Shown piece after piece: positions 1,254 to 36,551 of a stretch of DNA of 64,000 nt. The stretch is from contig CALXLG010000002.1 in assembly GCA_944389135.1 (NCBI GenBank), positions 24,362-88,361 of the forward strand, written 5' to 3'. Source of the stretch: an uncultured Alphaproteobacteria bacterium (GTDB lineage: Bacteria > Pseudomonadota > Alphaproteobacteria > Rs-D84). Under the pieces are notes generated by a model that was not told where the DNA came from, made no database searches, and saw nothing but the letters and a program-made list of their open reading frames with translations. The position numbers and the translations under genes are program-made. The first letter of the stretch is position 1, and each line of letters opens with the position of its first letter.

Positions 1254-1336
1254 TATCCTTCCTTTTGTCCGGGGTATTATACAAGCCAAGATTACAACTT
1301 GCAATATTAAAATCTATGAATAAAATATAGTGCGTT

Positions 1337-3678: not shown

Positions 3679-5964
3679 ATGAAAAGATTGATTGCAGTAC
3701 TTAGCAGTTTGTTGGTTTTACCTGCTTTTGCAGAGGTTGTGCCTGCTTATTATTACGAAGAAATGATGGAATATTCTGACGAATATGAAACACCACAAGC
3801 AGAAGAACAAACAAATGAGGCTGCAGAAGAAACCGAACAAAAAGTTAATACACCAGTTGTTCCAGCTGTTGTAAGCCCACGTAATTCAAATACACGTTCT
3901 GCAGCATCTAGGGCAGTAGCAACTTCTACAACTACTGGGCGTAATGTATCTACACGTACTTCAAATACTACACCAGCCAGATCGGTTACCGCCAGAACTG
4001 CAACAACAACTGTTGCACCAACGACCAACACTGTACGTACCACAACTAGTGCAACGACCCGTCCAACTACAACGGGGCGCACAACGACGGCATCACGTTC
4101 AACTGCGGCTGCAATACGTTCTGCGACCACACCGGGCGTAACCACACGTGCAAGTTCAAAAACAAATAATGTAAATACAGCACGCGCTTCTATTGTACAA
4201 ACAGATACCGCAAGCACACCTTTGTATATCAGCAATCGTGCAGGTGTCAGTACAACAGCTGCATCAGTTCGTGCCCGTATACCAACAGCACGTGCAGGGA
4301 CATCTTCTATAACCACAACTTCTACAGAATCTACTTCTTCTACTATTTCTATGGACGAATTGGCACAGGTAACAGATTTCTGTAAAGCGCAATATACTGC
4401 ATGTATGGATAATTTCTGTAATGTATTAGATGATAATCAAGGTCGTTGCAGTTGCAGTTCTAATTTGGATAACTATGCAGAAACAGAAGCGGCATTAAAA
4501 CAAGCAACCGAAGAATTACAAGATGTTGCGCAAAAGATTCAGTATATCGGTCTATCTGCAGAACAGGTTGAAACTTTGTTCACACAGACCGAAGCAGAAC
4601 TAGAAATGCAAACAACAACAGATAATACAAAACTAAAGAACGATTTGGATAAAATTAAAGACCTTATTGTTGATGTACAATCTGGCAAGGCGAGTTCTTC
4701 TAGCAGTGGTTTAAGTTTTGATTTATCTGGCTTGCTTGATTTTTCAATAGATAGTACAGGTTTTGATTTAAGCTCACTACTTGGCACCGGCAGCAATACA
4801 AACAGTATCAGCAACCAGCGTGGTGAACAATTGTACAAGACAGCTGCCGCACGTTGTAAGGCGTCTGTATTAAACAGCTGTCAAGCACAGGGTGTTGATA
4901 TTTCAATCATAACAAATGCCTATGATTTGGAAATAGATAAGCAATGTATAATTTATGAACGTACTTTGACAGAATCTAATGACCAGATGGCATCAACAGT
5001 TAGAAACGCTAAAAACGTCTTACAAAAGGCGCGATTATTAGTTGCACAACAAAAGAATGCATATAATTTGCGTGAATGTATAACAGAGCTTGATAACTGC
5101 ATGCAAGAAGACATCGTTTGTGGGGATGATTACGAAAACTGTCTTGATCCGACTGGCAAATACATCGTTAATGGCGAAGTTGTTGTCGGTAGTGAACCTG
5201 GCTCACCATCAAACCCAGAAGCATCGATATATTCTGCCATGTGGAAAAAAGGCGACGACAACCCTTGGGCAGATGAAGACTATACTCTTAGCAAATTCAT
5301 CGAAGATACTGTTACATCAACACCGGTAACTACTGCATCAACAAATATATCTGAATATTTACAGAATAAAATTGGTTGGCACGATGATTCTGACGGTAAA
5401 AATTATGGTATGTGCATATCTATATTAAATCAGTGTCAAGACATTACATATACTGGAACAGGTCAAAACCTGAAATATAACCCAGCAAACAATGTAATTA
5501 AAGAATTCTTGAACAGAACACTGGTTCAAATCAAGGCCGCACAAGATGAAATATTATCAGATTACGCTGAAGATTGCGTAACAGATGTAAAATCATGCTT
5601 GGTGCAAAATAATTACGACGCTTCAAAACCTTTAAGCACCAGCGTCGCTATTAACGCATGTGATTCAATAATAAAAACATGCATGTCAGTTACAGGAGAA
5701 ACAGATATAGAAGGAGGAAAAACTAACTGGATACAAAGCATAGTTCAGGGTTATAATTGCCCAGAAGGTGCAACTGGAACATATCCAAATTGTGACTGTG
5801 GTTGGAAATCTGGCACAAACACTTTAGGATATGATTTATCAAATAATGAATGCAAATCCTGTCCTAGTGATGCATTAAAAACGAGCCCTTATCCGTATTG
5901 TACATGTCCTAATGACAAAACATATGACCAGGCAACTAACACTTGTAAAACTAGCAGCCCATGA
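3679..5964 (+). CDS. Secreted protein with signal peptide, acidic stretch, ~250-aa Thr/Ser/Arg-rich low-complexity linker and a Cys-rich C-terminal domain
   Basis: Signal peptide 'MKRLIAVLSSLLVLPAFA' and RBS GAAGGGAAG. The 'TTTGRNVSTRTSNTTPARS...' region is mucin-like. The C-terminal domain has more than 45 Cys in CxxC-type spacing. Confidence 0.6.
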   Translation: MKRLIAVLSSLLVLPAFAEVVPAYYYEEMMEYSDEYETPQAEEQTNEAAEETEQKVNTPVVPAVVSPRNSNTRSAASRAVATSTTTGRNVSTRTSNTTPARSVTARTATTTVAPTTNTVRTTTSATTRPTTTGRTTTASRSTAAAIRSATTPGVTTRASSKTNNVNTARASIVQTDTASTPLYISNRAGVSTTAASVRARIPTARAGTSSITTTSTESTSSTISMDELAQVTDFCKAQYTACMDNFCNVLDDNQGRCSCSSNLDNYAETEAALKQATEELQDVAQKIQYIGLSAEQVETLFTQTEAELEMQTTTDNTKLKNDLDKIKDLIVDVQSGKASSSSSGLSFDLSGLLDFSIDSTGFDLSSLLGTGSNTNSISNQRGEQLYKTAAARCKASVLNSCQAQGVDISIITNAYDLEIDKQCIIYERTLTESNDQMASTVRNAKNVLQKARLLVAQQKNAYNLRECITELDNCMQEDIVCGDDYENCLDPTGKYIVNGEVVVGSEPGSPSNPEASIYSAMWKKGDDNPWADEDYTLSKFIEDTVTSTPVTTASTNISEYLQNKIGWHDDSDGKNYGMCISILNQCQDITYTGTGQNLKYNPANNVIKEFLNRTLVQIKAAQDEILSDYAEDCVTDVKSCLVQNNYDASKPLSTSVAINACDSIIKTCMSVTGETDIEGGKTNWIQSIVQGYNCPEGATGTYPNCDCGWKSGTNTLGYDLSNNECKSCPSDALKTSPYPYCTCPNDKTYDQATNTCKTSSP

Positions 5965-7357: not shown

Positions 7358-10075
7358 TTAAAACATCATACTGCCCTTTATACTGCCGGAATAATTATTA
7401 TATCCCTGGCGCATTGAAACATCTGCCCCGACTTGCACCTCATAAACACCGCCCCAACCTATTTTCAACTTCACGCCTCCGTTTGCTTGCCAGCGCGGCA
7501 ACCTTTCAGATTGTATATAATATTCAGCATCCCCTAACTTCACATTTAAATCGTCGACATCTGCATGCAAGTCATAAGACCCACCAAAATCTATAACAGG
7601 GGTTATACTAATGTTATTATCCAGCCAAAAGCTATGAGCAAATGAAACACCCGCATAAGTAGTTAAAAAGTTCAAATCTGCAGATGATATTTCTTGTCCG
7701 GCAGTATCTGTTGATGGATTTCTATGTATAAACGTATACCTAGTGCCAAATGTCGGTAACATTTCCCAATTATAAAAAGGCGTTTTATAACCTATCTCGG
7801 ACCATAGGCCAGTTGTATACAACCCCATACTATCAAACAACTGAATACCTGCCACGTTTTTAGTTTCATCCAAATCTGTATAGAAAGAACTGGCTGTTGT
7901 ATTCCATATAAAACCACCGTTTTCATATTTTGCATATATTCCACCACCATAAGTTGGTGCATGCATTGTTCTGGCCCAGCTTTTTAATCTGTCATATTGA
8001 TAAGTATATGCTATACCCAAATTCCAATTATCTAAATCGCATTCTGCACCAAGCCCAAAACCATAACCGTATATATCAAAGTTCGCATAATATTTATCTT
8101 CTTTAAGCCTGCCGCCACTGCCAATTGTAGCTGCCCACAAAGCGCCATTTTCTACTGAGTATTCTTGACGTCCTGCAGAATCAAGAGACAATAAATTATC
8201 AAATCTTTCCACATATGATGTACCTAATATCTGCATAAGTGGGGCCGTAGACGGCGCCAACGCCGTTAACGCGTGAACATACCCCATTGCATCTAATTGA
8301 ACAAGCTCATTTAGTCTTTCATATACTTCATCCGCACTTGTATTATCACTACTTGGAACTTCTTGCCACGCAATTGCCGTGTTTTCATTGTTCTGGGTTC
8401 CGCCTGCATCTCTTATAACATCCAAAAACGTACTTTCTGGGATAACTTCATACCAACCGTCCCCAATTTTTAAAAATGCATATATATTATTATTAATTTC
8501 TGGCATAAAATTATCATTTATTGTTTGAGAACTTCTTAACAATTGCAAACGCAAGCTATCTTGACCGTCCATTGCAGAAGAATTAAGAACTATACTTAAT
8601 CTGGAATTATCAGAAATTGAAAAATTATCTGCTGTTAAATAACCATAAGTATTCGCATCTTGCACACTTAGGCCCAACACCGCACCAGATGAAAATGTTG
8701 CCGAATTAACAGATGCATTACTAAGCCCCAAATTCAATGTTGCCCCAGCAACTGTTAAATCTGTCGCTGAAAAGAATTTCCCGCTATTCCCAACACTAAC
8801 CGTACCACCTTCAATGTCTACCCTACCAGAAAATCCTGTCATATCTTCATTCAATACAATTTCACCATCTGCCGGCATAGTGGCAGATTCTAACTGATAT
8901 GGTCTATTAACAACAATTGAACCAGAACCCGTTATTCTATCATCAAATATAATTTCATGACCCGAACCAGCATTTAAATGTAAAATTTCTGTTGTATAAA
9001 TCGCATTTGATACACCACTTGACGTATTACCGCTAAATTCTATATTTTTATTTTGAGCTATCAAAAATAACGCATTTAAATTAAATATTGCCCCGCCACC
9101 ATCTGTTGCACTGTTATTACTAAAATTACTATCTATGATATACATATCATCCCAGTTATAAACAGCACCGCCATAAGTTGCGCTATTTCCAACAAAATCT
9201 GAATTATTTATAACAGCATACAAACCGTCTCCTACTATTCCATAATTACCTATTGCCCCACCTGTTACACCTGTATTATCTTGAAATAATGAATTGCTTA
9301 AATCCATCATACCAGTAGTATAAACAGCCCCCACATCTTGACTGCCTGTATTTCCTATAAAATATACATTGCTAAGTTTAGTATTATTAGAACTATATAT
9401 TGCCGCCCCACTTTGTGCACTATTAGAACTAAAGACGCTATTTGTAATAGTTAAATCACCGTCATTAAAAATAACACCCCCATAACGACTTGCAGAATTT
9501 TCTTGAAAATAACTGCCATCTATGACAGCACTTGTTCCGTACTGATTATATATCACACCACCATTACTTCTGGTTGCTGTATTATTTTGAAACGCACTGT
9601 TTAAAATATTTAAACTGCCTGCACTTGTCTGATAAACAACACTGCCGCCATATGCAGACGAATTATTACTAAATGCCGAATTTTGTATATCTACGACACC
9701 GCCTAAATTTGCAAAAACCGCCCCTTGCCCCGATTGATAAAAGCCATTAACAGAATTTTCTACTGTTGCAGTTTGATTAGATACAGTAAAATTACCCCCA
9801 TTTGTTAATGAAACTGTATAACCATTTGAAACTGTGAAACCGTTATAATTTTCGCCATTAAAATTATACCCACCACCATTTATTGTTGTATTCTGCGCCC
9901 CAGGAACACTTAAAAGACGCGAGGCTATCATATCTGCTGTAATATTTATATCGTTTGATGTTGTTGCTGTTTTATATAAATTATAAAAAGAACTAAAATC
10001 GTTTACGTCTGTGGCATAAACTGGTGAACTACACATCAACATAATATAAAATGAAGTTTTTCCAATGATGCGCAT
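7358..10075 (-). CDS. Pmp-repeat autotransporter (type V secretion; beta-helical passenger plus C-terminal beta-barrel)
   Basis: Signal peptide. More than 8 repeats of the FxxN...GGA[IV] Chlamydia-Pmp type (for example 'NSDFVGNSATYGGAVYN', 'DSNFSNNSATDGGGAIFN'). The ~280-aa C-terminal region is rich in Gly/Tyr/aromatic residues and ends in a terminal Phe. Confidence 0.8.
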   Translation of the reverse strand: MRIIGKTSFYIMLMCSSPVYATDVNDFSSFYNLYKTATTSNDINITADMIASRLLSVPGAQNTTINGGGYNFNGENYNGFTVSNGYTVSLTNGGNFTVSNQTATVENSVNGFYQSGQGAVFANLGGVVDIQNSAFSNNSSAYGGSVVYQTSAGSLNILNSAFQNNTATRSNGGVIYNQYGTSAVIDGSYFQENSASRYGGVIFNDGDLTITNSVFSSNSAQSGAAIYSSNNTKLSNVYFIGNTGSQDVGAVYTTGMMDLSNSLFQDNTGVTGGAIGNYGIVGDGLYAVINNSDFVGNSATYGGAVYNWDDMYIIDSNFSNNSATDGGGAIFNLNALFLIAQNKNIEFSGNTSSGVSNAIYTTEILHLNAGSGHEIIFDDRITGSGSIVVNRPYQLESATMPADGEIVLNEDMTGFSGRVDIEGGTVSVGNSGKFFSATDLTVAGATLNLGLSNASVNSATFSSGAVLGLSVQDANTYGYLTADNFSISDNSRLSIVLNSSAMDGQDSLRLQLLRSSQTINDNFMPEINNNIYAFLKIGDGWYEVIPESTFLDVIRDAGGTQNNENTAIAWQEVPSSDNTSADEVYERLNELVQLDAMGYVHALTALAPSTAPLMQILGTSYVERFDNLLSLDSAGRQEYSVENGALWAATIGSGGRLKEDKYYANFDIYGYGFGLGAECDLDNWNLGIAYTYQYDRLKSWARTMHAPTYGGGIYAKYENGGFIWNTTASSFYTDLDETKNVAGIQLFDSMGLYTTGLWSEIGYKTPFYNWEMLPTFGTRYTFIHRNPSTDTAGQEISSADLNFLTTYAGVSFAHSFWLDNNISITPVIDFGGSYDLHADVDDLNVKLGDAEYYIQSERLPRWQANGGVKLKIGWGGVYEVQVGADVSMRQGYNNYSGSIKGSMMF

Positions 10076-10162: not shown

Positions 10163-11230
10163 TTATTCTTCTGTTGCGTTTATTTCTTCACGAATTTTTT
10201 CAACAGCCTGCGCCCTTTCTTTTATCACACTATTCAAATCCGCCCCAGTTAAATCCGCAGCATACTTAATAGAATTTGCAAACGCCAGCGCATCACTATT
10301 CCCATGTGTTTTAACTGCGAACCCCTTTAAGCCTAAGAACGTTGCACCCGCATAAGAACGAGGGTCTATTTTATTTTTCAATCTTTTAAACACGTGTACC
10401 AAGAAAAAAGCACCAATAATTGCTAAAATAGATTTCTTTAAGTTATCCACCAAAACACGCTTTATAAGTTTTGCTGTTCCCTCGACAGTTTTTAACACGA
10501 TATTACCAGTAAAACCGTCTGTGACAACAACCTGCACATTTCCACCACCAATATCATTACCCTCTACAAAACCGATATATTCATATGGTAATTCATCTTT
10601 ATGCGCACTTAATAACTTATTAAGCTTTTGCAGTGTTTCGTTACCTTTTGTATCTTCTTCCCCAATATTTAACACACCAACCTTTGGGCGAGGCATTTTA
10701 CCAATAACTTCTGCATAAACACTGCCAAGAATTGCAAAATCGAACAGTTCACGTTCACCACACTGCACATTTGCCCCAAGGTCTAATACAACCACACGAG
10801 AATCACCACCACCAGACGGTAGCATTGTTGTTATCGCAGGTCTTGAAATTCCATCAATTGTTTTAAGCGCCAGTTTTGATAAAGACATTAATATTCCTGT
10901 ATTACCAGCACTAACAACAGCGGCAGAATTTCCTTCACGTACGTCTTTTATTGCCATATACATAGAAGTATCCTGAGCATGACGAATAACATCACGAACT
11001 TTGTCTGTACCTTTTATTGCATTAGGTGCATGGATAAGTTCACAATTACGGGCAACACGTGGATACTTAGAAAGCAACTTACGTAATTTTTTTTCATCCC
11101 CAAATAGGCGAAAAAATACTTTGTCTTCCCCGTTCTGATACAAGAATTGGTTCATGCCGCCCAAAACAGCGTTTGGACCTTTATCACCACCCATTGCATC
11201 AATTGATATGATTTTCTTTTCTGTTGGCAT
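10163..11230 (-). CDS. plsX: Phosphate acyltransferase PlsX
   Basis: 'ISIDAMGGDKGP' N-terminus. Full-length, 355 aa. Confidence 0.9.
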   Translation of the reverse strand: MPTEKKIISIDAMGGDKGPNAVLGGMNQFLYQNGEDKVFFRLFGDEKKLRKLLSKYPRVARNCELIHAPNAIKGTDKVRDVIRHAQDTSMYMAIKDVREGNSAAVVSAGNTGILMSLSKLALKTIDGISRPAITTMLPSGGGDSRVVVLDLGANVQCGERELFDFAILGSVYAEVIGKMPRPKVGVLNIGEEDTKGNETLQKLNKLLSAHKDELPYEYIGFVEGNDIGGGNVQVVVTDGFTGNIVLKTVEGTAKLIKRVLVDNLKKSILAIIGAFFLVHVFKRLKNKIDPRSYAGATFLGLKGFAVKTHGNSDALAFANSIKYAADLTGADLNSVIKERAQAVEKIREEINATEE

Positions 11231-23900: not shown

Positions 23901-23974
23901 TGGCAGGGGCAGAAGGAATCGAACCCTCATCCGCGGTTTTGGAGACCGATATTCTACCGTTGAACTATGCCCCT
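23901..23974 (-). tRNA. tRNA-Trp (anticodon CCA)
   Basis: The 74-nt reverse-complement cloverleaf reads AGGGGCA...CTCCAAA...GGTTCGATTCC...TGCCCCTGCCA. It is in the conserved position upstream of secE. Confidence 0.9.
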
Positions 23975-24204
23975 AAAACTACCTTATACACACCTGTTTT
24001 TTGTACCATCTGACCCCGATAGTCTGCGACAAGATAGCACACCTGTACAAAAAATCAAGTGGAAATATTATACGTTTTTAATCGCAATTGCGCAAGTAAA
24101 ATTTAAAAGTTTTTGTTAGTAATTTCTGATTTTAGTATACTTTTTACTTGCGTGCCCCTACTATTTTTTTCTACAATCATCTTAATGAAAGGGAGAGGAA
24201 CACA

Positions 24205-24885
24205 TTGCAAGACCGTGTAGAACCGCCAATTTTGCTGTCTAGAGTGATGACGTTCGTATTTGCCAGCGCAATTGTCGTGCTGGTCGCGTTGGTATTTACA
24301 CTGTACAATATGTTCCCGTTAAATCGCCCACAGGTATTCTTTTTAATGACTGCACCTAAGCAAAACTTGCAAGTAATTTTACGCGAAATGGTCCCGTCAG
24401 ACGAAAATTTAGAGAATTATAAAAAATCTTTCATATTAGAATATATCAAGGCACGAAATGAAATTGTACCAAACGCTGGTGTAATGCGTACAAAATGGAA
24501 CAATGGCACAGACGGTGTTGTTTATACTTGGTCAACACAGGATGTATATAACACATTTACTGAAACAAATATGTGGCAAGCATGGATGTCAGGGCTACCA
24601 GATTTTGAATTTTCATGCTCTGTTGAATTTGGTGCAAACGCATTTGAACCATATGCAGACGATACTTATATAGTAAAATTTTACTATTTCTGTGCAGATA
24701 GTAATAGACAGCTGGATAAAAAAGAGTATAAAATAAAAGTAAAATTAGATATGGAAGATAACGCCACTATCAAATGGTCAGACAGATTAGATAACCCGTT
24801 GGGTATTCGTGTGTCAGAATACGAAATAGAATCTGAAAATGGTGACCCGCTAAATACAGGTTATTTGGCAAACGGTGATATGTAA
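24205..24885 (+). CDS. virB8: VirB8/TrbF/DotI-like type IV secretion inner-membrane protein
   Basis: Short N-terminus, a single TM segment ('FVFASAIVVLVALVFTLY'), a ~190-aa periplasmic domain and an 'ILEYIKARNEI' YxxxR-type motif. It sits immediately upstream of the VirB9- and VirB10-like genes. The start is ambiguous: TTG at 24205 (GGGAGAGG RBS), TTG at 24148 or ATG at 24247. Confidence 0.55.
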   Translation: MQDRVEPPILLSRVMTFVFASAIVVLVALVFTLYNMFPLNRPQVFFLMTAPKQNLQVILREMVPSDENLENYKKSFILEYIKARNEIVPNAGVMRTKWNNGTDGVVYTWSTQDVYNTFTETNMWQAWMSGLPDFEFSCSVEFGANAFEPYADDTYIVKFYYFCADSNRQLDKKEYKIKVKLDMEDNATIKWSDRLDNPLGIRVSEYEIESENGDPLNTGYLANGDM

Positions 24886-24912
24886 AGAAATTAAGAAACG
24901 GAAGGAAATGGC

Positions 24913-26445
24913 ATGACGTTCTCAAAAACACTGAAGTTAAATATATCCATAATTTGCTTGATAGCATTGTGTAATTTCCCTGCACTGGCAACCAGTTATG
25001 GTGTTCAAGAAGCTTGGGATAATCCAACTGCAAATATGGCATCTGGCAGTGTAAAGCCTGGCTATGCCCAGCTTAGCTGGTCAAAAGGTAGTGTTTTACC
25101 TGTAAAACTTCGTAATGGTATGGTAACGATGATAACATTGCCCAATGGGGAACAAATTGCCGAAGCAGTTGTTGGTAATGAAAATTTATTCACTTTTGAT
25201 GCGGCACAGGGTGGAAACACGATATTAATTACCCCGTTACAAAGTAACCAAGGCTCAGATACTAATTTTATAGTAACTGGAAAATCTGGCAACCAATATA
25301 TATTCTATCTTCGTAGCGAACCAGCAAACTCTAGTGAAATTACATATTCTCAGGTTGACGTCGTTTTAGACGGTAATGCAACATTACCAAATGCAACATC
25401 TAATACTAGCGCCGCCACAGGTGGTTCTTCTTCCATTTTTAAAAAAGTTTCTAATGCGACAAGCACTGTTGGTGTTGACGGCGAAGACTATGGTTGGATA
25501 AAATCTATGAAGATTGACCCATCTGAATTTAGATTTGATTTAGATATCTTCGTACCAAACCCAGATGATTATGTAATCGCACCAGAACGCGTATGGCGCG
25601 ACCAGATATTTACTTATATCGACTTTGGTGACAAAGTTATATCAATGACACAAAGACCAGTTGTCTCTTTGCTGGTTGAAGGTGGGGAATCACCGGTTGG
25701 CTTCCGTACAGACGGTGAAGACGGCAGATTATTAATTGTAGAAGCCGTTGGTGATATGGTTTTGCGCAGTGGTCAACGAATTGTTTGCATAAAGAAACGT
25801 GAAAAACCATTCTTGATTGCAGATACAGCATCAGTTATGGCCTTGGCAGAAGCAAATGTTGCACAAAGTCTTATGTCTGGGCAATCATTGAATAACATTG
25901 CATACAATCAAGACTTGGCCGCAATGAGTGGTTCTGTTTCCAATTACACAACAACACCTATGTTTGTTGGTAACGCGTCTATGGGTGGTACAACTAGTGG
26001 TTATTATATGCCTGCAGGATATGGGTTGCCAACCGCAACTTATGGCAGCAGCAGTGCAAGTGGTGTAACAATGATACCAACAGAAAGAATAACGGCTGGT
26101 TCGTTCTTACCGCAATCTAACATTCCATTGATAACAACAAATCAATCTGGGGTGGCAGTTGAGTTAAAATCAGATACGTCTGTGAAAGCTTTGGATGATT
26201 ATTGGGCTAATTTGCTGGCGAAATTTAGTGGCGAAGACGGTCAAGGATTATTGGCACCTTATAAAGACATGGTATTCTTTGCTGTTGACGAACAAGGTGT
26301 TGGCGATTTAGGTGCTGAATCTTCTGCTGCACGTCTATACCGTTTACGCATTGGACCTTTGTCTGATATAGATACAGCACAAACGCTTTGTGATAAGCTT
26401 ACACGCTCGCAAGGAATTAGTTGCAGTGTTGTCAGAATTCAATAA
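24913..26445 (+). CDS. virB9: VirB9/TrbG/DotH-like T4SS outer-membrane core protein with a C-terminal SPOR domain
   Basis: Signal peptide. N-terminal domain 'GEQIAEAVVGNENLFTFDAAQGGNTILITPLQSNQGSDTNFIVTGKSGNQYIFYLRS' and C-terminal domain 'VSLLVEGGESPVGFRTDGEDGRLLIVEAVGDMVLRSGQRIVCI' are VirB9-like. The extra C-terminal ~70 aa ('LYRLRIGPLSDIDTAQTLCDKLTRSQGISCSVVRI') resembles a SPOR domain. Confidence 0.7.
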   Translation: MTFSKTLKLNISIICLIALCNFPALATSYGVQEAWDNPTANMASGSVKPGYAQLSWSKGSVLPVKLRNGMVTMITLPNGEQIAEAVVGNENLFTFDAAQGGNTILITPLQSNQGSDTNFIVTGKSGNQYIFYLRSEPANSSEITYSQVDVVLDGNATLPNATSNTSAATGGSSSIFKKVSNATSTVGVDGEDYGWIKSMKIDPSEFRFDLDIFVPNPDDYVIAPERVWRDQIFTYIDFGDKVISMTQRPVVSLLVEGGESPVGFRTDGEDGRLLIVEAVGDMVLRSGQRIVCIKKREKPFLIADTASVMALAEANVAQSLMSGQSLNNIAYNQDLAAMSGSVSNYTTTPMFVGNASMGGTTSGYYMPAGYGLPTATYGSSSASGVTMIPTERITAGSFLPQSNIPLITTNQSGVAVELKSDTSVKALDDYWANLLAKFSGEDGQGLLAPYKDMVFFAVDEQGVGDLGAESSAARLYRLRIGPLSDIDTAQTLCDKLTRSQGISCSVVRIQ

Positions 26446-26466
26446 TAAAATAACTGCGGATTTGTT

Positions 26467-28971
26467 ATGAACAGTATAAAAAAACAATTTTCAGATTTGC
26501 GCAAAAGTACGCCAAAGCATATCCAATGGTTGCTGTTGGCTGCGGCGTTCATTGTCGTTTTGATTTTACTGACATTATTGCTAACTAACAAAGAAGAAGA
26601 AAAAATAGAAAATGCTGATAATGTAATTGTAAAGCTTAGCTTTATGCCTGATTCAATCAATTGGGCAAATACGCTGGTTGGGGATACAGAAAAGCAAACA
26701 ATAAAAATATCAGCAAACACCCCAATAAAAATTATGGGTGTAAGATTTTCTAAGTCTATAAATGGCTTGCCTGCAGAACCAGTACAAACCTGTACCAGAA
26801 TGGGGCAAATAGACAAAGATAACGCTTGCACCATAGATTTGGAATATAAACCCAGCACTGCATTAAAAGCAGAAACCATTGATTTATATGTTGATTGGCG
26901 TCGTACAACAGAACCAGAAACGATAAAAAATACAGACCGTATGTTATTGGTTTTGGGTGCAACCGAACCAGAGCCAGAAAAACCAGTAGAGCCAATCGTT
27001 ACTGAAAAAGAGCCTGTAGATACGCCTGTTATAACAGAAACAGTTCAAGAGATTGCCGCGTCTGCCCCAATAAAAGAAGAAATCAAAAGCAGTGTTGAGT
27101 TAATCTCTCCGTCTAACGTTGTTCCAGATGAGAAAGCGTCCCCAGCTGTTGCACCAATTGCACAAGTCACAACAAGTGTTGTAGAAGAAGATGACTATGT
27201 ACCACCTGCAGAAACATGTTCTGACTTTGCTTTCCCAGGATACAATTTATCAGGTGTACAAAGTGGCTGGATAAGACCAGAAGCAGGGGCTTATTATTAC
27301 CATCCTTTCTCAGATAAAGAATGCAACAATCCAACCGGCAGATATAATCCTGATACGGGTATAATAACTGATATAAATGACAGTGGAAAAAAGATTGGAA
27401 CCGACGCAGAACATATTGGTTATACAGCGATAACAACAGGTGAAATGCCACAACTTTCAAATCCGCCAGAAAAAAAGGAAATTTGGAAAGCAACTCAACT
27501 TAGTCTGGATGAAATAGAGCAAGCACTTACACAACCTGTTCAACAAGTTGGGGTTGATGCAAACGGTAAAAAAATATTTCCTGGAGTAATTGTCGCCAAA
27601 GAAGAAACGTCTGATGTACTTATTGGTACCAGCAGTACAACCGCAGTTTATTCGTCAGACCCGTTTGATAGAAAATTTGTATTGCGTCAATATAAACCAA
27701 TTCCTGCAACAATCGTATCCGAAGTTCGTGCAGACCCTTCTTTGTATCAAACAGGACAATCTTTACCAGTAAGAGCAACCGTTGACAGAAACGTGTATTC
27801 TGATGACGGTCGTACCGTTGTAATACCAACTGGTACATTGCTGTTGGGATATGTAACAGGCGAATTACCAGGACCATATAAATCAATCGGTCGTATGCAA
27901 ATAAACTGGTATCAATTTATATTACCAAATGGTGTCGAGTTTAATTTTAATAAGGATGGCACCGCACCATTTTCTGGCGACTCACAAGGTCGTGCGGGCG
28001 TTCCAGGACATGGCAGCACAGACTATGTTGAACAAATCGTTATGCCTATGCTGACGGCAATTGTTCCGGCCGCGGTAAATATGATTGCACCAATCGCGGA
28101 TACGTTTGTTAATCAAATTGATTTGGATAACAATACGGTTGTTCAATCTGGTACAGTGCGTTCTTCTGAGCTAGCAAAGAACGAAATCATAACAGCATGG
28201 AATCAGGTTGCACAGAAATTACTGGTTGATGCAATGGATAATACAATACCACCATTTTCAATTGCAGCCGGCACACGTATAACAGTCTTTTCACCAACAG
28301 ATTTGGTAATTACATGTGGCAATGATAACACAAAAGAATGTTCAGTTGAAAACGTAACAAAGGCATCCAATACCGCAGACGAACGCAATCAGCGTTTTGA
28401 AGGATGGCGTTCAATAACACCAACTGTTGACTATACAGATGATTCTTGGGTTGGGCAGGTACGTTCGTTTAACTTAGAACAATTCTGTACAACTGATAAA
28501 GACGGAATTTGGGATATCAATGAATCAAAAACTGCTGAAATATCACAATCTGGTTATGATTACAGGACTGTTTTGGCATATTGTCAGTCGCTAAATTACC
28601 AAGCGATAAACAACGCAAAACAAGATGCTTTGTACCAAGATCAGCAAAAACAATTCAAAGCAAATTATGCAGGGACGACATCTTCTGGTTCTACTAATAC
28701 AATATCCGGTTTATCTGGAATAACAGGTAGCCAGGCTTATAACGAAGAAGTCCTTGGGTTAACTTACGAAGATGGTGTTATTCAAAACCCATTTGAAACA
28801 GTTGAAACTGTCCAAGAAACAGAAGCAACAACCAGCGCAATTACATGTCCAGATGGGACCGCACCTGACCAATATGGTTGTTGTACTGGTGAAATATATA
28901 CGGATATGGGCGAACAAGGATTTAACTGCTGTCCAGAAACTGGTGGTGATTGCTTCCCGCCGATAATGTAA
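26467..28971 (+). CDS. virB10: VirB10/TrbI/DotG-like T4SS protein with Pro-rich linker and a ~300-aa Cys-rich C-terminal extension
   Basis: N-terminal TM segment and an 'EPEPEKPVEPIVTEKEPVDTPV' linker. The VirB10 C-terminal domain signature is 'RATVDRNVYSDDGRTVVIPTGTLLLGYVTG...GRMQINWYQFILPNGVEFNF...AGVPGHGSTDYVEQIVMPMLTAI'. At 834 aa it is much longer than typical VirB10 (~400-480 aa). Confidence 0.75.
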   Translation: MNSIKKQFSDLRKSTPKHIQWLLLAAAFIVVLILLTLLLTNKEEEKIENADNVIVKLSFMPDSINWANTLVGDTEKQTIKISANTPIKIMGVRFSKSINGLPAEPVQTCTRMGQIDKDNACTIDLEYKPSTALKAETIDLYVDWRRTTEPETIKNTDRMLLVLGATEPEPEKPVEPIVTEKEPVDTPVITETVQEIAASAPIKEEIKSSVELISPSNVVPDEKASPAVAPIAQVTTSVVEEDDYVPPAETCSDFAFPGYNLSGVQSGWIRPEAGAYYYHPFSDKECNNPTGRYNPDTGIITDINDSGKKIGTDAEHIGYTAITTGEMPQLSNPPEKKEIWKATQLSLDEIEQALTQPVQQVGVDANGKKIFPGVIVAKEETSDVLIGTSSTTAVYSSDPFDRKFVLRQYKPIPATIVSEVRADPSLYQTGQSLPVRATVDRNVYSDDGRTVVIPTGTLLLGYVTGELPGPYKSIGRMQINWYQFILPNGVEFNFNKDGTAPFSGDSQGRAGVPGHGSTDYVEQIVMPMLTAIVPAAVNMIAPIADTFVNQIDLDNNTVVQSGTVRSSELAKNEIITAWNQVAQKLLVDAMDNTIPPFSIAAGTRITVFSPTDLVITCGNDNTKECSVENVTKASNTADERNQRFEGWRSITPTVDYTDDSWVGQVRSFNLEQFCTTDKDGIWDINESKTAEISQSGYDYRTVLAYCQSLNYQAINNAKQDALYQDQQKQFKANYAGTTSSGSTNTISGLSGITGSQAYNEEVLGLTYEDGVIQNPFETVETVQETEATTSAITCPDGTAPDQYGCCTGEIYTDMGEQGFNCCPETGGDCFPPIM

Positions 28972-28978
28972 ACAATTA

Positions 28979-29005
28979 CCCGCCAATTTGGCGGGTTTAT
29001 TTTTA
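28979..29005 (+). terminator. Rho-independent terminator after the VirB10-like gene
   Basis: 'cccgccaatttggcggg' followed by tttattttt. Confidence 0.6.
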
Positions 29006-29247: not shown

Positions 29248-29595
29248 ATGACAGTACAAAACACACAATATGCTTTATCAGCAGAAAAATTTCAAAACGC
29301 AGAACAACTATGGTTTTGGTTTTTATATTCAAAATCTGTGCAAAATGGTTTTATAAGAAATCATAACAGATGCACTAAACGTGTATGTGAATTGTTGGAT
29401 GTAGAAACGCTTATCACAAAATTATACCTTTCTGGGAAACTAACTGATGAACAGCTAGGCGTTATGAAAAAATTTGGTGACCGCAGGCGTGCACCACATC
29501 AATATATCTGGTCTGAAAATAAAGCAGCTGATTTATGGAGAAAAGCTATGCAAACTCTTGAAACCGCCGCTATGCAACGTGGTTGGATTGAATAA
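29248..29595 (+). CDS. Hypothetical protein (115 aa)
   Basis: Strong RBS AAAAGGAGGAAG 6 nt before the ATG. No recognisable motif. Confidence 0.5.
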   Translation: MTVQNTQYALSAEKFQNAEQLWFWFLYSKSVQNGFIRNHNRCTKRVCELLDVETLITKLYLSGKLTDEQLGVMKKFGDRRRAPHQYIWSENKAADLWRKAMQTLETAAMQRGWIE

Positions 29596-29628: not shown

Positions 29629-29988
29629 ATGATTATTATCGGTTTTTCTACAAAAACATCTAAAATTTTACCGCGCATCTTATGCAAACATTTTAAGCAT
29701 TGTGCACCAATTATTAAAGTTGGTGAAAATTTTCTTATGTATCAATTCATAAAACATAATGATATAAAAGCGATTCCAATAACTTCTTATGGTCTAAAGT
29801 TATTAAAAGGCGCAGGCTGGAAATTTATAAAAACAAACCTAAAACCTGCCAAATATCCCAAACCATACAACGCTGTTACATGTGTTTGTTTTACAAAAAA
29901 ATTTATCGGAATACATGCACCTTTTATTCAAACTCCCGATGCTTTATACAGAAAATTAAAACGCCCAAAAGGGCGTTTTATTACTTAA
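29629..29988 (+). CDS. Hypothetical protein (119 aa), basic
   Basis: RBS AAAGGA. A hairpin terminator 'acgcccaaaagggcgt' + TTTTATT overlaps its 3' end. Confidence 0.45.
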   Translation: MIIIGFSTKTSKILPRILCKHFKHCAPIIKVGENFLMYQFIKHNDIKAIPITSYGLKLLKGAGWKFIKTNLKPAKYPKPYNAVTCVCFTKKFIGIHAPFIQTPDALYRKLKRPKGRFIT

Positions 29989-35369: not shown

Positions 35370-36551
35370 CTAGTGAAAAATATAACAATCTATTCCTGCA
35401 TTTACAGCTTTATTTTTTATGCTTTGTGCAGAACTTTCTGACAAACCATTCGCACGCACACGATATAAACCATTAGAAGTTTGTTCTATTTCCGCATTTA
35501 CACCTATTTTATTTTTAACATTATTTACCTGTGTCTGCGCCGCATTATAAGATGAAAAAGCACCAAACTGAACCCCAGCATTACCAGAAGAAACTGTCGT
35601 TGTACTATAACTGGTCTTGGCGCTTGCATTACTACCTGTTGTTGCGGCAACATATGCAGCCTTGAACGTGGGCGCAGTATTAGAAGAAGATTTTACATAA
35701 CTTTCCTGTTCTTGCCCTGGTGCATAATAAGTTTGATACATAGATGGCACTGCACCGTTTTTTACCATCTCAAACCCTTTATTCAACATTCTGGTAGAAA
35801 CATTTGCACGAATATCTTTGCTTTCTGCACCCAATACAACAGATATCAAATGATGACCATCTTGCTTTGCCGTTGCGACCAAAGAATAACGAGACTTATT
35901 AGTATAACCAGTCTTCATACCATCACAGCCAGGATACGTACCCAACAAACGATTTCCATTTGTATATGTCTTGCCGTTATAAGTCCACGTCTTAATTCCA
36001 AAATATTTCCAATATTGCGGGAAGTGTTTATATATCGCCATAGACAATAAAGCAATATCACGCGCCGTAGACAACTGGTCATCATTTGGCAGGCCTGATG
36101 AATTTTCAAAGTTTGTTCCCGACAACCCGATTTCATTTGCCACGCGCGTCATCAAATCTGCAAAATTACCTTCTTTCCCGCCCTTTAGATTTTCTGCCAA
36201 AACGCGAGCAACATCATTTGCACTTAATACAGTCAAAGCCTTAATCGCATCTTCTACTTTTATTTTACTACCAGCCGCCAGACCTAATTTTACAGGTGAT
36301 GCCCCAGCTGCAGATTGAGAAACAATTAAGTAATCATCCAAATGCAAACGTCCATGTTCCAGCGCATCAAATGTTAAATACAAAGTCATAATTTTTGTTA
36401 AGCTTGCAGGATAATTTTGGACATTAGCATTTTCTTGATAAAGAATTCTGCCACTATCCATATCAGCAACCAGCGCAGCCTTATATTGCGCACCAAACGC
36501 AGGAAAAGCCAGTACACAAAAAGCAAAAAGAAATCCACCTAACCTTTTCAT
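35370..36551 (-). CDS. D-alanyl-D-alanine carboxypeptidase (PBP5/6 family) with C-terminal SPOR domain
   Basis: 'ASLTKIMT' is an SxxK motif, with 'SGN' and 'KTG' motifs also present. The C-terminal 'GVQFGAFSSYNAAQ...LYRVRANGLSESSAQSI...AGIDCYIFH' is SPOR-like. Confidence 0.8.
   Translation of the reverse strand: MKRLGGFLFAFCVLAFPAFGAQYKAALVADMDSGRILYQENANVQNYPASLTKIMTLYLTFDALEHGRLHLDDYLIVSQSAAGASPVKLGLAAGSKIKVEDAIKALTVLSANDVARVLAENLKGGKEGNFADLMTRVANEIGLSGTNFENSSGLPNDDQLSTARDIALLSMAIYKHFPQYWKYFGIKTWTYNGKTYTNGNRLLGTYPGCDGMKTGYTNKSRYSLVATAKQDGHHLISVVLGAESKDIRANVSTRMLNKGFEMVKNGAVPSMYQTYYAPGQEQESYVKSSSNTAPTFKAAYVAATTGSNASAKTSYSTTTVSSGNAGVQFGAFSSYNAAQTQVNNVKNKIGVNAEIEQTSNGLYRVRANGLSESSAQSIKNKAVNAGIDCYIFH

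What the first reader, a model, noticed from the sequence alone, without database searches (positions are those of the whole stretch)
24148..28971. Stand-alone VirB8-VirB9-VirB10-like type IV secretion core module with a SPOR-domain VirB9 and an oversized Cys-rich VirB10, and no ATPase genes
Three co-oriented genes directly follow the tRNA-Trp/secE/nusG ribosomal cluster and encode homologues of the T4SS core trio. The arrangement is unusual in four ways. (1) A terminator and two small unrelated ORFs follow the VirB10-like gene instead of virB11/virD4. (2) The VirB9-like protein is 510 aa and ends in a SPOR-like peptidoglycan-binding domain. I am not aware of a SPOR-fused VirB9. The D-Ala-D-Ala carboxypeptidase at 35370-36551 carries a similar SPOR tail. 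(3) The VirB10-like protein is 834 aa, with a Pro/Glu-rich linker and a ~300-aa Cys-rich C-terminal extension beyond the VirB10 beta-barrel domain. (4) The same F-G-I / B8-B9-B10 / DotI-H-G gene order is shared by Trb, VirB and Dot/Icm systems, so the lineage is undetermined. This could be a divergent envelope-spanning channel anchored to peptidoglycan, or a remnant of a secretion system.
Basis: partly seen in the sequence, partly recalled or inferred. Interest (0 to 1): 0.75.

Follow-up and report, generated by a model that had tools for sequence, protein, structure and literature searches.

The report
Detached type IV secretion core operon
Three adjacent genes in a tiny-genome gut bacterium (Candidatus Enterousia) encode the envelope-spanning core of a type IV secretion machine, one part carrying a cell-wall-binding domain; all three are strongly conserved across the genus but sit apart from the motor genes such machines normally need.

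Summary
Window 24148-28971 carries a three-gene operon that ends in a clean terminator:
- VirB8-like (245 aa)
- VirB9-like with a C-terminal SPOR domain (510 aa)
- enlarged VirB10-like (834 aa)

There are no T4SS ATPase genes anywhere in the 64 kb window.

The genome is Candidatus Enterousia, a gut alphaproteobacterium of order Rs-D84 with a genome under 1 Mb. The operon sits at the same place in all 80 species loci fetched. It is under strong purifying selection (dN/dS about 0.05-0.2). It is therefore neither a remnant nor a mobile element.

The SPOR-VirB9 fusion is not unique to this genome. It marks a large uncharacterised T4SS family of gut and rumen Alphaproteobacteria. More distant members of that family have full loci in the order VirB4, VirB6-like, VirB8, VirB7-like lipoprotein, VirB8, VirB9-SPOR, giant VirB10, VirB11. 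That order matches the Rickettsiales rvh islet C.

My best reading is that this operon is one islet of a split rvh/VirB-type T4SS whose ATPases lie elsewhere in the genome. I could not scan the rest of the genome, so a truly ATPase-less conduit remains possible, at roughly 15-20%.

I class it as a new variant of a known kind, of moderate interest.

The parts
24148..24885 (+). VirB8-like bitopic inner-membrane protein. It has a transmembrane helix at about residues 34-56 and a periplasmic NTF2-like domain. The probable true start is the TTG at 24205.
   Evidence: Pfam PF04335 3.2e-12, 47.2 bits, above the gathering cut-off. Shine-Dalgarno GGGAGAGGA lies 5 nt before the TTG at 24205. Cys157 and Cys182 are 100% conserved in 80 orthologues. 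dN/dS is 0.06-0.14.
24913..26445 (+). VirB9-like protein with a Sec signal peptide (residues 1-26), an N-terminal domain, a C-terminal domain, a flexible linker and a SPOR domain.
   Evidence: Pfam CagX 5.4e-22 plus SPOR 4.4e-6. Foldseek matches Xanthomonas VirB9 6gyb_B at 1.9e-11 and R388 TrwF 7o3t_B with TM 0.78. Mean identity across 80 species is 78%. dN/dS is 0.04-0.07.
25048..25368 (+). VirB9 N-terminal beta-sandwich domain (residues 46-152).
   Evidence: AF2 pLDDT is about 83. It superposes on the TrwF N-terminal domain at rmsd 1.9-2.5 A.
25495..25812 (+). VirB9 C-terminal domain (residues about 195-300), including the invariant Cys292.
   Evidence: 95-100% identity across the genus. dN/dS is 0.007-0.024. 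Cys292 is nearly invariant in 90 distant relatives. The AF2 monomer model has low confidence here.
25873..26142 (+). Low-complexity Gly/Ser/Thr/Tyr-rich linker (residues 321-410).
   Evidence: pLDDT is below 50. Conservation is lowest here, at 0.53-0.70.
26149..26442 (+). SPOR-like peptidoglycan-binding domain (residues 413-510) with a conserved Cys493/Cys504 pair.
   Evidence: Pfam PF05036 27.4 bits against a cut-off of 21, matching the second half of the model. The AF2 topology is beta-alpha-beta-beta-alpha-beta at pLDDT 73-84. The tail motif RLRIGP..C..L....C.VVR.Q is shared by about half of the distant relatives. dN/dS is 0.03-0.06.
26467..28971 (+). Enlarged VirB10-like protein (834 aa). 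It has a conserved cytoplasmic N-terminus and a transmembrane helix at residues 21-40.
   Evidence: Pfam TrbI 2e-16; NCBIfam T4SS_VirB10 4.7e-17. Foldseek matches CagY at 7.6e-7, TraF 3jqo at 4.7e-5, Xac VirB10 at 6.5e-5 and ComB10 at 2e-4. 11 of the first 20 residues are invariant in 68 sequences.
26635..26964 (+). Periplasmic Ig-like (ASH/PapD/MSP-type, 'choice-of-anchor D') domain of VirB10 (residues 57-166), with conserved Cys109/Cys121.
   Evidence: NCBIfam NF012200 3.2e-4. AF2 pLDDT is about 80. Foldseek matches 6fvi at 1.1e-5. The domain is also present in the L085 and L086 homologues.
26965..27201 (+). Pro/Glu-rich variable linker (residues 167-245).
   Evidence: Seen directly in the sequence. 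Identity is 0.10-0.40 with many gaps.
27202..27471 (+). Conserved module of unknown fold (residues 246-335) with invariant Cys251/Cys286.
   Evidence: 73-78% identity. It is shared with the L085 and L086 homologues.
27652..28314 (+). VirB10 beta-barrel domain (residues 396-616). It includes two long, partly hydrophobic helices (residues 518-553 and 566-593) in the position of the outer-membrane 'antenna'.
   Evidence: Pfam, NCBIfam and PDB sequence hits. Secondary structure. 81-94% identity. dN/dS is 0.04-0.09. About 31% identity to plasmid VirB10 proteins.
28315..28968 (+). Cys-rich C-terminal extension (residues 617-834, 10 Cys). Its terminal motif GCC.GEIYTDMGEQGFNCCPE.GGDCFPPI is nearly invariant. 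The extension is specific to Enterousia.
   Evidence: All Cys are at least 99% conserved. dN/dS is 0.14-0.22. The extension is absent from the L085 and L086 homologues. No fold could be assigned.
28978..29005 (+). Intrinsic terminator (ACCCGCCAATTTGGCGGGT followed by a T-run) that closes the operon.

Best explanation
The three genes form a vertically inherited chromosomal operon. It encodes the envelope-spanning scaffold of a VirB/rvh-type (type IVA) secretion system in Candidatus Enterousia.

**How it most likely works**
- VirB8 and VirB10 are anchored in the inner membrane by N-terminal transmembrane helices.
- VirB10 stretches across the periplasm. Its C-terminal barrel and two antenna helices assemble with the VirB9 C-terminal domain into the outer-membrane ring.
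- The VirB9 N-terminal domain forms the inner, periplasmic layer of the ring.
- The VirB9 SPOR domain sits on a flexible linker of about 90 residues and ties the ring to (denuded) peptidoglycan.

**What is shown**
- Domain identities, conservation, purifying selection and operon structure.
- Homology to complete T4SS loci in related lineages.

**What is inferred**
- That the ring actually assembles.
- That the SPOR domain binds peptidoglycan.
- That the remaining components (at least a VirB4 ATPase, probably VirB6/VirB3/VirB2, and perhaps VirB7 and VirB11) are encoded at other sites of the roughly 0.9 Mb genome. This would mirror the 'archipelago' of vir islets in Rickettsiales.

**Likely biological role (inferred).** Contact-dependent transfer of macromolecules to or from the partner cells on which this metabolically dependent bacterium lives.
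For: **Identity of the proteins**
- All three proteins pass Pfam gathering cut-offs for VirB8, VirB9 and VirB10.
- Fold matches to solved VirB9 and VirB10 structures.

**Conservation**
- The same operon lies at the same site in 80 Enterousia species: nusG-secE-tRNATrp, then B8-B9-B10-orfX-orfY, then yidC.
- dN/dS is 0.04-0.25, and lowest in the VirB9 C-terminal domain and the VirB10 barrel.

**Relatives with full loci**
- Relatives at 35-47% identity carry VirB4, VirB6-like, VirB8, VirB7-like lipoprotein, VirB8, VirB9(SPOR), giant VirB10 and VirB11 in one locus.
- That order equals Rickettsia rvh islet C. Split 'archipelagos' of vir genes are the rule in Rickettsiales (PMC2653234).
- L088 and L089 show intermediate, partly split arrangements.

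**Hints that unseen partners exist**
- The cytoplasmic N-terminus of VirB10 is nearly invariant: 11 of 20 residues in 68 sequences. This implies a conserved cytoplasmic or inner-membrane partner.
- VirB9 Cys292 is invariant across the whole family. From memory, the equivalent cysteine in A. tumefaciens VirB9 is disulfide-linked to VirB7, which would hint at a retained partner.

**Organism.** Enterousia lacks amino-acid, nucleotide and lipid biosynthesis and is thought to depend on partner cells (PMC12306168).
Against: - No VirB4, VirB11, VirD4, VirB6 or VirB7 gene was found in the 64 kb window or in 10 kb flanks of 80 species.
- Two more distant low-GC lineages (L085, L086/L087) also show only B8-B9-B10 or B9-B10 among housekeeping genes. 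No member of this clade has yet been seen with an ATPase.
- The only genomic description of the order does not mention any secretion system.
- The rest of the genome could not be scanned.
- The AF2 models of the VirB9 C-terminal domain and the VirB10 barrel have low confidence.
Confidence: 0.62

Rival explanations
1. A truly ATPase-less derivative. In the Rs-D84 clade the T4SS has been reduced to VirB8-VirB9-VirB10 alone. These would form a peptidoglycan-anchored, envelope-spanning pore or tether used for passive or otherwise-energised exchange, or for adhesion to partner cells. No VirB4, VirB11 or VirD4 would exist anywhere in the genome.
For: - The trio or pair stands alone in three separate low-GC lineages, each in a different housekeeping context.
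- The operon has its own terminator.
- There is no VirB7-like gene here, whereas relatives have one inside the cluster.
- Lineage-specific additions suggest remodelling: an Ig-like domain, a Cys-rich tail, and a smaller VirB10 than the 1300-2650 aa giants of relatives.
- The genome paper reports no secretion system.
Against: - No functional T4SS-derived machine without VirB4 is known (established knowledge).
- The invariant cytoplasmic N-terminus of VirB10 implies a cytoplasmic or inner-membrane partner.
- Split vir loci are well documented in related reduced genomes.
- Absence was tested over only about 7% of the genome.
Confidence: 0.18
2. The core of a ComB-like DNA-uptake system. The trio would form the outer-membrane and periplasmic conduit that brings environmental DNA to ComEC, supplying nucleotides or genes to a bacterium that cannot make nucleotides.
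For: - ComEC lies 11 kb downstream in the window.
- In relative L088 the virB7-B11 operon sits between comM and comEC.
- The best PDB sequence hit of the clade's VirB10 profile is H. pylori ComB10, at 2.2e-8.
- In H. pylori, comB6-10 is also separate from comB2-4, and there is no VirD4 (established knowledge).
- No VirD4 lies next to the relatives' loci.
- Enterousia lacks nucleotide synthesis, and no type IV pili were reported for it.
- JGI names one homologue 'ComB9 competence protein'.
Against: - comM/comEC adjacency was seen in only 1 of 54 long relative loci.
- CagY scores almost the same as ComB10.
- NCBIfam scores VirB10 above ComB10, and both fall far below their cut-offs.
- ComB also needs ComB4, which was not found here.
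Confidence: 0.15
3. A decaying remnant of a lost T4SS or of an integrated conjugative element.
For: There are no neighbouring ATPase genes. Two small unannotated ORFs lie downstream.
Against: - The ORFs are intact in all 80 species loci fetched (the VirB10-like ORF is cut short at contig ends in a few), and 206 matches in all were found in the collection.
- dN/dS is 0.04-0.25 while synonymous sites are saturated.
- All 14 VirB10 cysteines are conserved.
- Synteny with ribosomal and yidC genes is fixed, and no integrase, relaxase or repeats are present.
- GC content does not differ from the flanks.
Confidence: 0.02

Closest known systems
Rickettsiales vir homologue (rvh) T4SS
   Same: - It is a chromosomal, vertically inherited VirB-type system in reduced-genome Alphaproteobacteria, with genes scattered in islets.
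- The full loci of this family's relatives have the order VirB8, VirB7, VirB8, VirB9, VirB10, VirB11, with large VirB6-like proteins. This matches rvh islets C and A.
   Different: - The Enterousia islet has one VirB8, no VirB7 and no VirB11 or VirD4.
- Its VirB9 carries a SPOR domain.
- Its VirB10 carries an Ig-like domain and a Cys-rich tail.
- Direct sequence relatedness to Rvh proteins was not tested.
VirB7/VirB9/VirB10 outer-membrane core complex of type IVA systems (A. tumefaciens VirB, pKM101 Tra, R388 Trw, X. citri)
   Same: - The domain families and folds match. The VirB9 N-terminal domain superposes on TrwF (TM 0.78), and the VirB10 barrel with two helices matches TraF and Xac VirB10.
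- The closest plasmid homologues are Rhizobiaceae VirB10 proteins, at about 31% identity.
   Different: - Scores are far below NCBIfam equivalog cut-offs: VirB9 54 bits against 218, VirB10 62 bits against 220.
- The VirB9 profile has no sequence-level hit in the PDB.
- There is no VirB7 and no adjacent ATPase genes.
- It has extra domains.
H. pylori ComB (comB6-10 and comB2-4) and the Cag system (giant CagY)
   Same: - The VirB8-9-10 genes lie in an operon apart from the VirB4 gene.
- The clade's VirB10 profile hits ComB10 and CagY best.
- Relatives have giant VirB10 proteins of 1300-2650 aa, like CagY.
   Different: - No ComB4 or ComB7 is seen here.
- The linkage to competence genes is weak.
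- It belongs to a different bacterial class.
SPOR-domain proteins (FtsN, DamX, RlpA, CwlC)
   Same: The C-terminal tail passes the Pfam SPOR cut-off and is predicted to fold as beta-alpha-beta-beta-alpha-beta. The weak best PDB hit of its profile is the CwlC SPOR domain.
   Different: - It is fused to a secretion-system ring protein rather than to a division or cell-wall enzyme.
- It has a conserved Cys pair.
- The match covers only half of the Pfam model.
- Similarity to the SPOR tail of this genome's own carboxypeptidase is only marginal: hhalign E = 0.069.

Membership tests
Type IVA (VirB-like) T4SS | VirB8: bitopic inner-membrane protein with a periplasmic NTF2-like domain | tested here: met
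   PF04335 47.2 bits against a cut-off of 23.2, full model coverage. A transmembrane segment lies at residues 34-56.
Type IVA (VirB-like) T4SS | VirB9: secreted two-domain ring protein | tested here: met
   PF03524 79 bits against a cut-off of 34.2. A signal peptide is present. Foldseek hits VirB9, TrwF, DotH and CagX. The C-terminal domain is modelled with low confidence.
Type IVA (VirB-like) T4SS | VirB10: N-terminal transmembrane helix, Pro-rich region, C-terminal barrel with antenna helices | tested here: met
   PF03743 60.8 bits against a cut-off of 35. A transmembrane helix lies at residues 21-40 and a Pro/Glu linker follows. Helices lie at 518-553 and 566-593. Foldseek hits CagY, TraF and Xac VirB10. 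The model has low confidence.
Type IVA (VirB-like) T4SS | VirB4 ATPase, the only component found in every T4SS | not testable with these tools
   It is absent from the 64 kb window and from 10 kb flanks in 80 species.
Type IVA (VirB-like) T4SS | VirB7 lipoprotein partner of VirB9 | tested here: not met
   No small lipobox ORF and no SPCAC-motif ORF occurs in the window. Relatives have one between their two VirB8 genes.
Type IVA (VirB-like) T4SS | VirB11 and/or VirD4 next to virB10 | tested here: not met
   A terminator follows virB10, then unrelated ORFs. Among relatives, VirB11 follows virB10 in 45 of 54 long loci.
Canonical VirB9/VirB10 equivalogs (NCBIfam TIGR02781, NF038091, NF038092 ComB10) | Score above the curated equivalog cut-off | tested here: not met
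   54.2 bits against 217.7; 62.2 against 220; 44.5 against 300. These are divergent family members, not equivalogs.
SPOR domain (PF05036) | Profile match above the gathering score, and an RNP-like beta-alpha-beta-beta-alpha-beta fold | tested here: met
   27.4 bits against a cut-off of 21, although only model positions 38-76 are matched. The predicted topology has pLDDT 73-84. The PDB profile hit to CwlC is only E = 0.97.
SPOR domain (PF05036) | Binding to denuded peptidoglycan glycan strands | not testable with these tools
   This needs biochemistry.
Rickettsiales rvh-type T4SS | Duplicated VirB8 flanking VirB7, multiple large VirB6-like proteins, and genes scattered in islets | tested here: inconclusive
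   The gene order is present in relatives and matches PMC2653234. The Enterousia locus itself has one VirB8 and no VirB7. No direct sequence comparison with Rvh proteins was made.
ComB DNA-uptake T4SS | The comB8-10 operon works with ComB4 and ComEC; there is no VirD4 | tested here: inconclusive
   ComEC lies 11 kb away. A comM/comEC-flanked operon was seen in only one relative. ComB10 is the best PDB profile hit, but only marginally ahead of CagY.

The most novel reading that the evidence does not exclude
In the Rs-D84 clade of obligately partner-dependent gut bacteria, a T4SS has been reduced to a peptidoglycan-anchored VirB8-VirB9(SPOR)-VirB10 conduit that works without any dedicated T4SS ATPase. 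It could act as a passive or ComEC/ComEA-driven channel for acquiring DNA or metabolites, or as an intercellular tether. In this reading the Enterousia-specific Cys-rich VirB10 tail takes over the role of the missing VirB7.
Probability: 0.17. Interest if true: 0.85.

Novelty: new variant of a known kind. Interest (0 to 1): 0.5.

Why it matters
- **A candidate interaction machine.** Enterousia and its relatives are widespread, uncultured gut bacteria with genomes under 1 Mb. They cannot make amino acids, nucleotides or lipids and are presumed to live off other cells. How they do so is unknown. A strongly conserved T4SS core is a concrete candidate for the machine that mediates this, and the published genome descriptions do not mention it.
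- **An undescribed domain architecture.** A SPOR domain fused to VirB9 is shared by hundreds of gut alphaproteobacterial lineages, and I found no description of it in the searchable literature. It suggests a direct way of fastening a T4SS ring to the cell wall, and possibly of targeting the ring to septal or polar denuded glycan.
- **What a genome scan could decide.** If whole-genome scans show no VirB4, this would be the first T4SS-derived apparatus without its universal ATPase.

Tried and rejected
1. **Looking for ATPases locally.** Pfam on about 35 window ORFs, and tblastn with VirB4 and VirB11 from relatives against the window and 80 loci, found nothing.
2. **Looking for VirB4 genome-wide.** This was not possible. 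Homology searches list only the best 120 hits, and closer lineages would fill that list.
3. **The competence link.** The comM and comEC flanking seen in L088 looked promising. It did not generalise to 54 long relative loci.
4. **Variable insertions between orfY and yidC in other Enterousia species.** I checked them for T4SS genes. They hold Stealth, GT2, dUTPase and unknown genes, and no T4SS genes.
5. **orfX and orfY.** Neither hits any family. orfX is conserved but has its own Shine-Dalgarno sequence and lies beyond two terminators, so I did not count it as part of the operon.
6. **Structure of the Cys-rich tail.** The AF2 model is too poor for any fold assignment (mean pLDDT 47.9).
8. **Recent duplication of the SPOR tail.** The idea that the VirB9 tail was copied recently from the carboxypeptidase tail is not supported (hhalign E = 0.069).
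9. **Literature.** Searches for SPOR with VirB9, and for Rs-D84 with T4SS, found nothing relevant. The 2023 Enterousia paper is not held.
10. **Short contigs.** The contigs for P0121 and P0127 were too short to show gene context.

Full report
**1. What is in the sequence**

Window 24148-28971 holds three co-oriented ORFs of 245, 510 and 834 aa, separated by 27 and 21 nt. A canonical intrinsic terminator follows at 28978-28996, made of an 8 bp stem with 6 G-C pairs and a T-run.

Upstream, on the other strand, lie tRNA-Trp (23901-23974), secE, nusG, rplK, rplA, rplJ and rpoB/C. Downstream are two small ORFs with no family hits, then yidC and lspA on the minus strand.

Pfam places the three proteins above its gathering cut-offs:
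- VirB8: 47.2 bits.
- CagX/VirB9: 79 bits, plus SPOR at 27.4 bits.
- TrbI/VirB10: 60.8 bits.

NCBIfam agrees on VirB9 and VirB10, but at scores far below its equivalog cut-offs. These are therefore divergent family members.

The VirB8 gene probably starts at the TTG at 24205. That codon follows a strong Shine-Dalgarno sequence, and the 19 codons before it are not conserved.

No T4SS ATPase is encoded anywhere in the 64 kb window. All other sizeable ORFs are housekeeping genes or have no family hit. tblastn with VirB4 and VirB11 from related loci finds nothing. The S11 carboxypeptidase at 35370-36551 does have a SPOR tail.

**2. Organism and conservation**

A scan of one genome per GTDB species found 206 loci that encode a close relative of the VirB9-like protein. 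The best 80 have 75-88% identity. They are MAGs named Candidatus Enterousia, 'uncultured Alphaproteobacteria' or 'uncultured Rickettsiales', and include a circular 958,618 bp genome.

In these 80 species the order rplJ-rplA-rplK-nusG-secE, then B8-B9-B10-orfX-orfY, then yidC-lspA-kefB is essentially invariant. Mean amino-acid identity to the window is:

| Protein | Identity |
|---|---|
| VirB9 | 78% |
| VirB8 | 60% |
| VirB10 | 57% |
| YidC | 67% |
| NusG | 89% |

Pairwise dN/dS against the four nearest species is 0.04-0.07 for VirB9, 0.06-0.14 for VirB8 and 0.14-0.25 for VirB10. Synonymous sites are saturated. The strongest constraint falls on the VirB9 C-terminal domain (0.007-0.024) and the VirB10 barrel (0.04-0.09).

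All 14 VirB10 cysteines, both VirB8 cysteines, and Cys292, Cys493 and Cys504 of VirB9 are at or near 100% conserved. GC content matches the flanks.

The operon is therefore a core, vertically inherited, functional unit. It is not a remnant or a mobile element.

According to PMC12306168, Enterousia (order Rs-D84) has a genome under 1 Mb. It lacks amino-acid, nucleotide and lipid biosynthesis, respiration and flagella, and is thought to depend on partner cells. That paper mentions no secretion system.

**3. Anatomy of the proteins**

*VirB9-like.* The domains, in order:
- A Sec signal peptide.
- An N-terminal beta-sandwich (residues 46-152, pLDDT about 83). It superposes on the TrwF/VirB9 N-terminal domain with TM 0.78.
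- A C-terminal domain (about residues 195-300). It is nearly invariant in sequence but poorly modelled as a monomer.
- A disordered Gly/Ser/Thr/Tyr linker of about 90 residues.
- A C-terminal domain (residues 413-510) predicted as beta-alpha-beta-beta-alpha-beta at pLDDT 73-84.

The SPOR assignment rests on two things: the Pfam hit, which is above the cut-off but matches only the second half of the model, and this predicted topology. A profile of the tail finds the CwlC SPOR domain only weakly (E = 0.97). It aligns only marginally with the SPOR tail of the genome's own carboxypeptidase (E = 0.069).

*VirB10-like.* The domains, in order:
- A short cytoplasmic N-terminus in which 11 of 20 residues are invariant across 68 sequences.
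- A transmembrane helix at residues 21-40.
- An Ig-like ASH/PapD-type domain at residues 57-166 (pLDDT about 80; Foldseek 6fvi at 1.1e-5; NCBIfam choice-of-anchor D at 3e-4).
- A variable Pro/Glu linker.
- A conserved two-Cys module at residues 246-335.
- The VirB10 barrel at residues 396-616, with two long helices (518-553 and 566-593) where the outer-membrane antenna lies in solved structures.
- A tail of 218 residues with ten conserved cysteines and a nearly invariant terminal motif.

The whole VirB10 model has low confidence (mean pLDDT 47.9), so the tail's fold is unknown. The tail is absent from the homologues in L085 and L086.

**4. The wider family**

Reading every one of 1.84 billion representative proteins with the VirB9-like query gave only 478 hits at E <= 1e-3. 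This is a compact, divergent family. All 90 long members scanned carry the CagX domain. About half end in the same tail motif, RLRIGP..C..L....C.VVR.Q, although Pfam calls SPOR in only 7 of them. The SPOR fusion is therefore a family trait, not a peculiarity of this genome.

Gene context differs by lineage.

*High-to-medium-GC gut and rumen lineages (35-47% identity).* These have full loci: VirB4, small genes, a 1100-1570 aa VirB6-like protein, VirB8, a 54-63 aa lipoprotein (lipobox plus SPCAC motif), VirB8, VirB9(SPOR), a giant VirB10 (1300-2650 aa, sometimes split) and VirB11.
- Among 54 long metagenomic loci, VirB11 follows VirB10 in 45.
- VirB4 is visible at the edge of the flank in 13.
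- Housekeeping genes, not VirD4, follow VirB11.

The order VirB8, VirB7, VirB8, VirB9, VirB10, VirB11, together with large VirB6-like proteins, is that of the Rickettsia rvh islets. The paper describing them states that 'archipelagos of vir islets' are characteristic of Rickettsiales (PMC2653234).

*Closest sequence relatives of the VirB10 barrel.*
- The barrel is about 31% identical to VirB10 of Rhizobiaceae plasmids.
- The clade's VirB10 profile best hits H. pylori ComB10 (2.2e-8) and CagY (4.1e-8), then TrwE and Xanthomonas VirB10.
- The lineage question is therefore largely settled: type IVA, VirB/rvh-like, not Trb or Dot/Icm.

*Lineages closest to Enterousia.* By VirB9 similarity these are L086/L087 (50% identity by HMMER over the matched stretches, 41% by tblastn; GC 0.35) and L085 (43% and 40% likewise; GC 0.36). 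They also show only VirB8-VirB9-VirB10, or VirB9-VirB10, embedded among housekeeping genes: after rpsB-tsf, and next to hpf. L089 is intermediate. It has VirB6-like, VirB8, VirB9, one extra gene and VirB10, with no VirB11.

**5. Interpretation**

*Best supported reading (confidence about 0.6).* The operon is one islet of a split VirB/rvh-type T4SS.
- It encodes the inner-membrane-to-outer-membrane scaffold.
- The SPOR domain on a long linker ties the periplasmic ring to peptidoglycan.
- VirB4, and probably other parts, are encoded elsewhere, as in Rickettsiales.
- The invariant cytoplasmic N-terminus of VirB10 and the family-wide invariant Cys292 of VirB9 both suggest conserved partners that are not in the operon. 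From memory, Cys292 corresponds to the VirB7-linked cysteine of A. tumefaciens VirB9.

*Main rival (about 0.17-0.18).* The clade has really lost the ATPases and keeps a peptidoglycan-anchored conduit or tether. In its favour, the stand-alone state recurs in three lineages, VirB7 is absent, and the VirB10 has been remodelled.

*A functional variant (about 0.15).* The system is ComB-like and takes up DNA together with ComEC. ComEC lies 11 kb downstream here, and in L088 the operon sits between comM and comEC. That adjacency occurs in only 1 of 54 relatives.

*Rejected.* The remnant and mobile-element readings are effectively refuted.

**6. Limits**

- The rest of the Enterousia genome could not be scanned, so 'no ATPase genes' is established only for 64 kb plus 10 kb flanks in 80 species.
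- The AF2 models are low in confidence outside the VirB9 N-terminal domain, the SPOR domain and the VirB10 Ig-like domain.
- Peptidoglycan binding, ring assembly and the transported substrate are all inferred.
- The affinity to rvh rests on gene order and content, not on a phylogeny.

**7. Verdict**

This is a divergent, strongly conserved VirB8-VirB9(SPOR)-VirB10 islet of an uncharacterised gut alphaproteobacterial T4SS family. It is a new variant of a known kind.

Interest is moderate (0.5). It would be high if whole-genome scans show that no VirB4 exists.

Noticed in passing
window 29248-29595 (+): orfX (115 aa) has no family hit. It is conserved at 72.5% identity across 72 Enterousia species with dN/dS of about 0.1, which is better conserved than VirB8 or VirB10. 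It has its own strong Shine-Dalgarno sequence and lies after two terminator-like hairpins. Its function is unknown. The neighbouring orfY (29629-29988) is much less conserved (46% identity).
   Followed up: partly
window 39930-41993 (+); L088 7164-21015: ComEC lies 11 kb downstream of the operon. In one relative (L088) the virB7-B8-B9-B10-B11 operon is flanked by comM and (after gltX) comEC. The adjacency did not recur in 53 other long relative loci.
   Followed up: yes
L084 9011-9190; L081 9050-9238; L088 9028-9219; L089 4026-4190: Relatives encode a 54-63 aa lipoprotein with a lipobox and a conserved SPCAC motif, in three of the four loci between two VirB8 genes. It is a VirB7-like component that current profiles do not annotate.
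   Followed up: partly
window 7358-10075 (-) and 3679-5964 (+): A 905 aa protein with Chlamydia PMP repeats looks like an autotransporter or adhesin. A 761 aa protein has no Pfam hit. Both are large surface-protein candidates in a genome under 1 Mb.
   Followed up: no
window 315-1304, 10163-11230, 60576-61307 (all -): FabH, PlsX and an acyl-ACP thioesterase are present, although the published description says the lineage lacks lipid biosynthesis. At least part of fatty-acid and phospholipid metabolism seems to be retained.
   Followed up: no
L020 (CAZJGX010000027.1) and L065 (CAVGNU010000001.1): Contigs carrying the Enterousia operon with full Enterousia synteny are deposited in bins labelled 'uncultured Muribaculaceae bacterium' and 'Bacteroides fragilis'. 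This is probably mis-binning in public assemblies.
   Followed up: no
L017 15073-17328; L035 15276-16265; L042 9279-10145; L048 10143-11132: The spot between orfY and yidC is a variable insertion site among Enterousia species. It carries Stealth-family and GT2 glycosyltransferase genes, dUTPase, or a 751 aa protein with no family hit.
   Followed up: partly
L040 and L044 (about 14.6-21 kb and 13.3-20 kb): In two Enterousia species the yidC-to-dacC block is missing from this site. There pyk-pyrG-comEC follow orfY directly, so the operon stays close to comEC despite the rearrangement.
   Followed up: no
window 46762-51716 (-): An AcrB-type RND pump and an outer-membrane factor (OEP/TolC-like) are retained in this reduced genome; between them lies a 198 aa ORF with no Pfam hit.
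   Followed up: no
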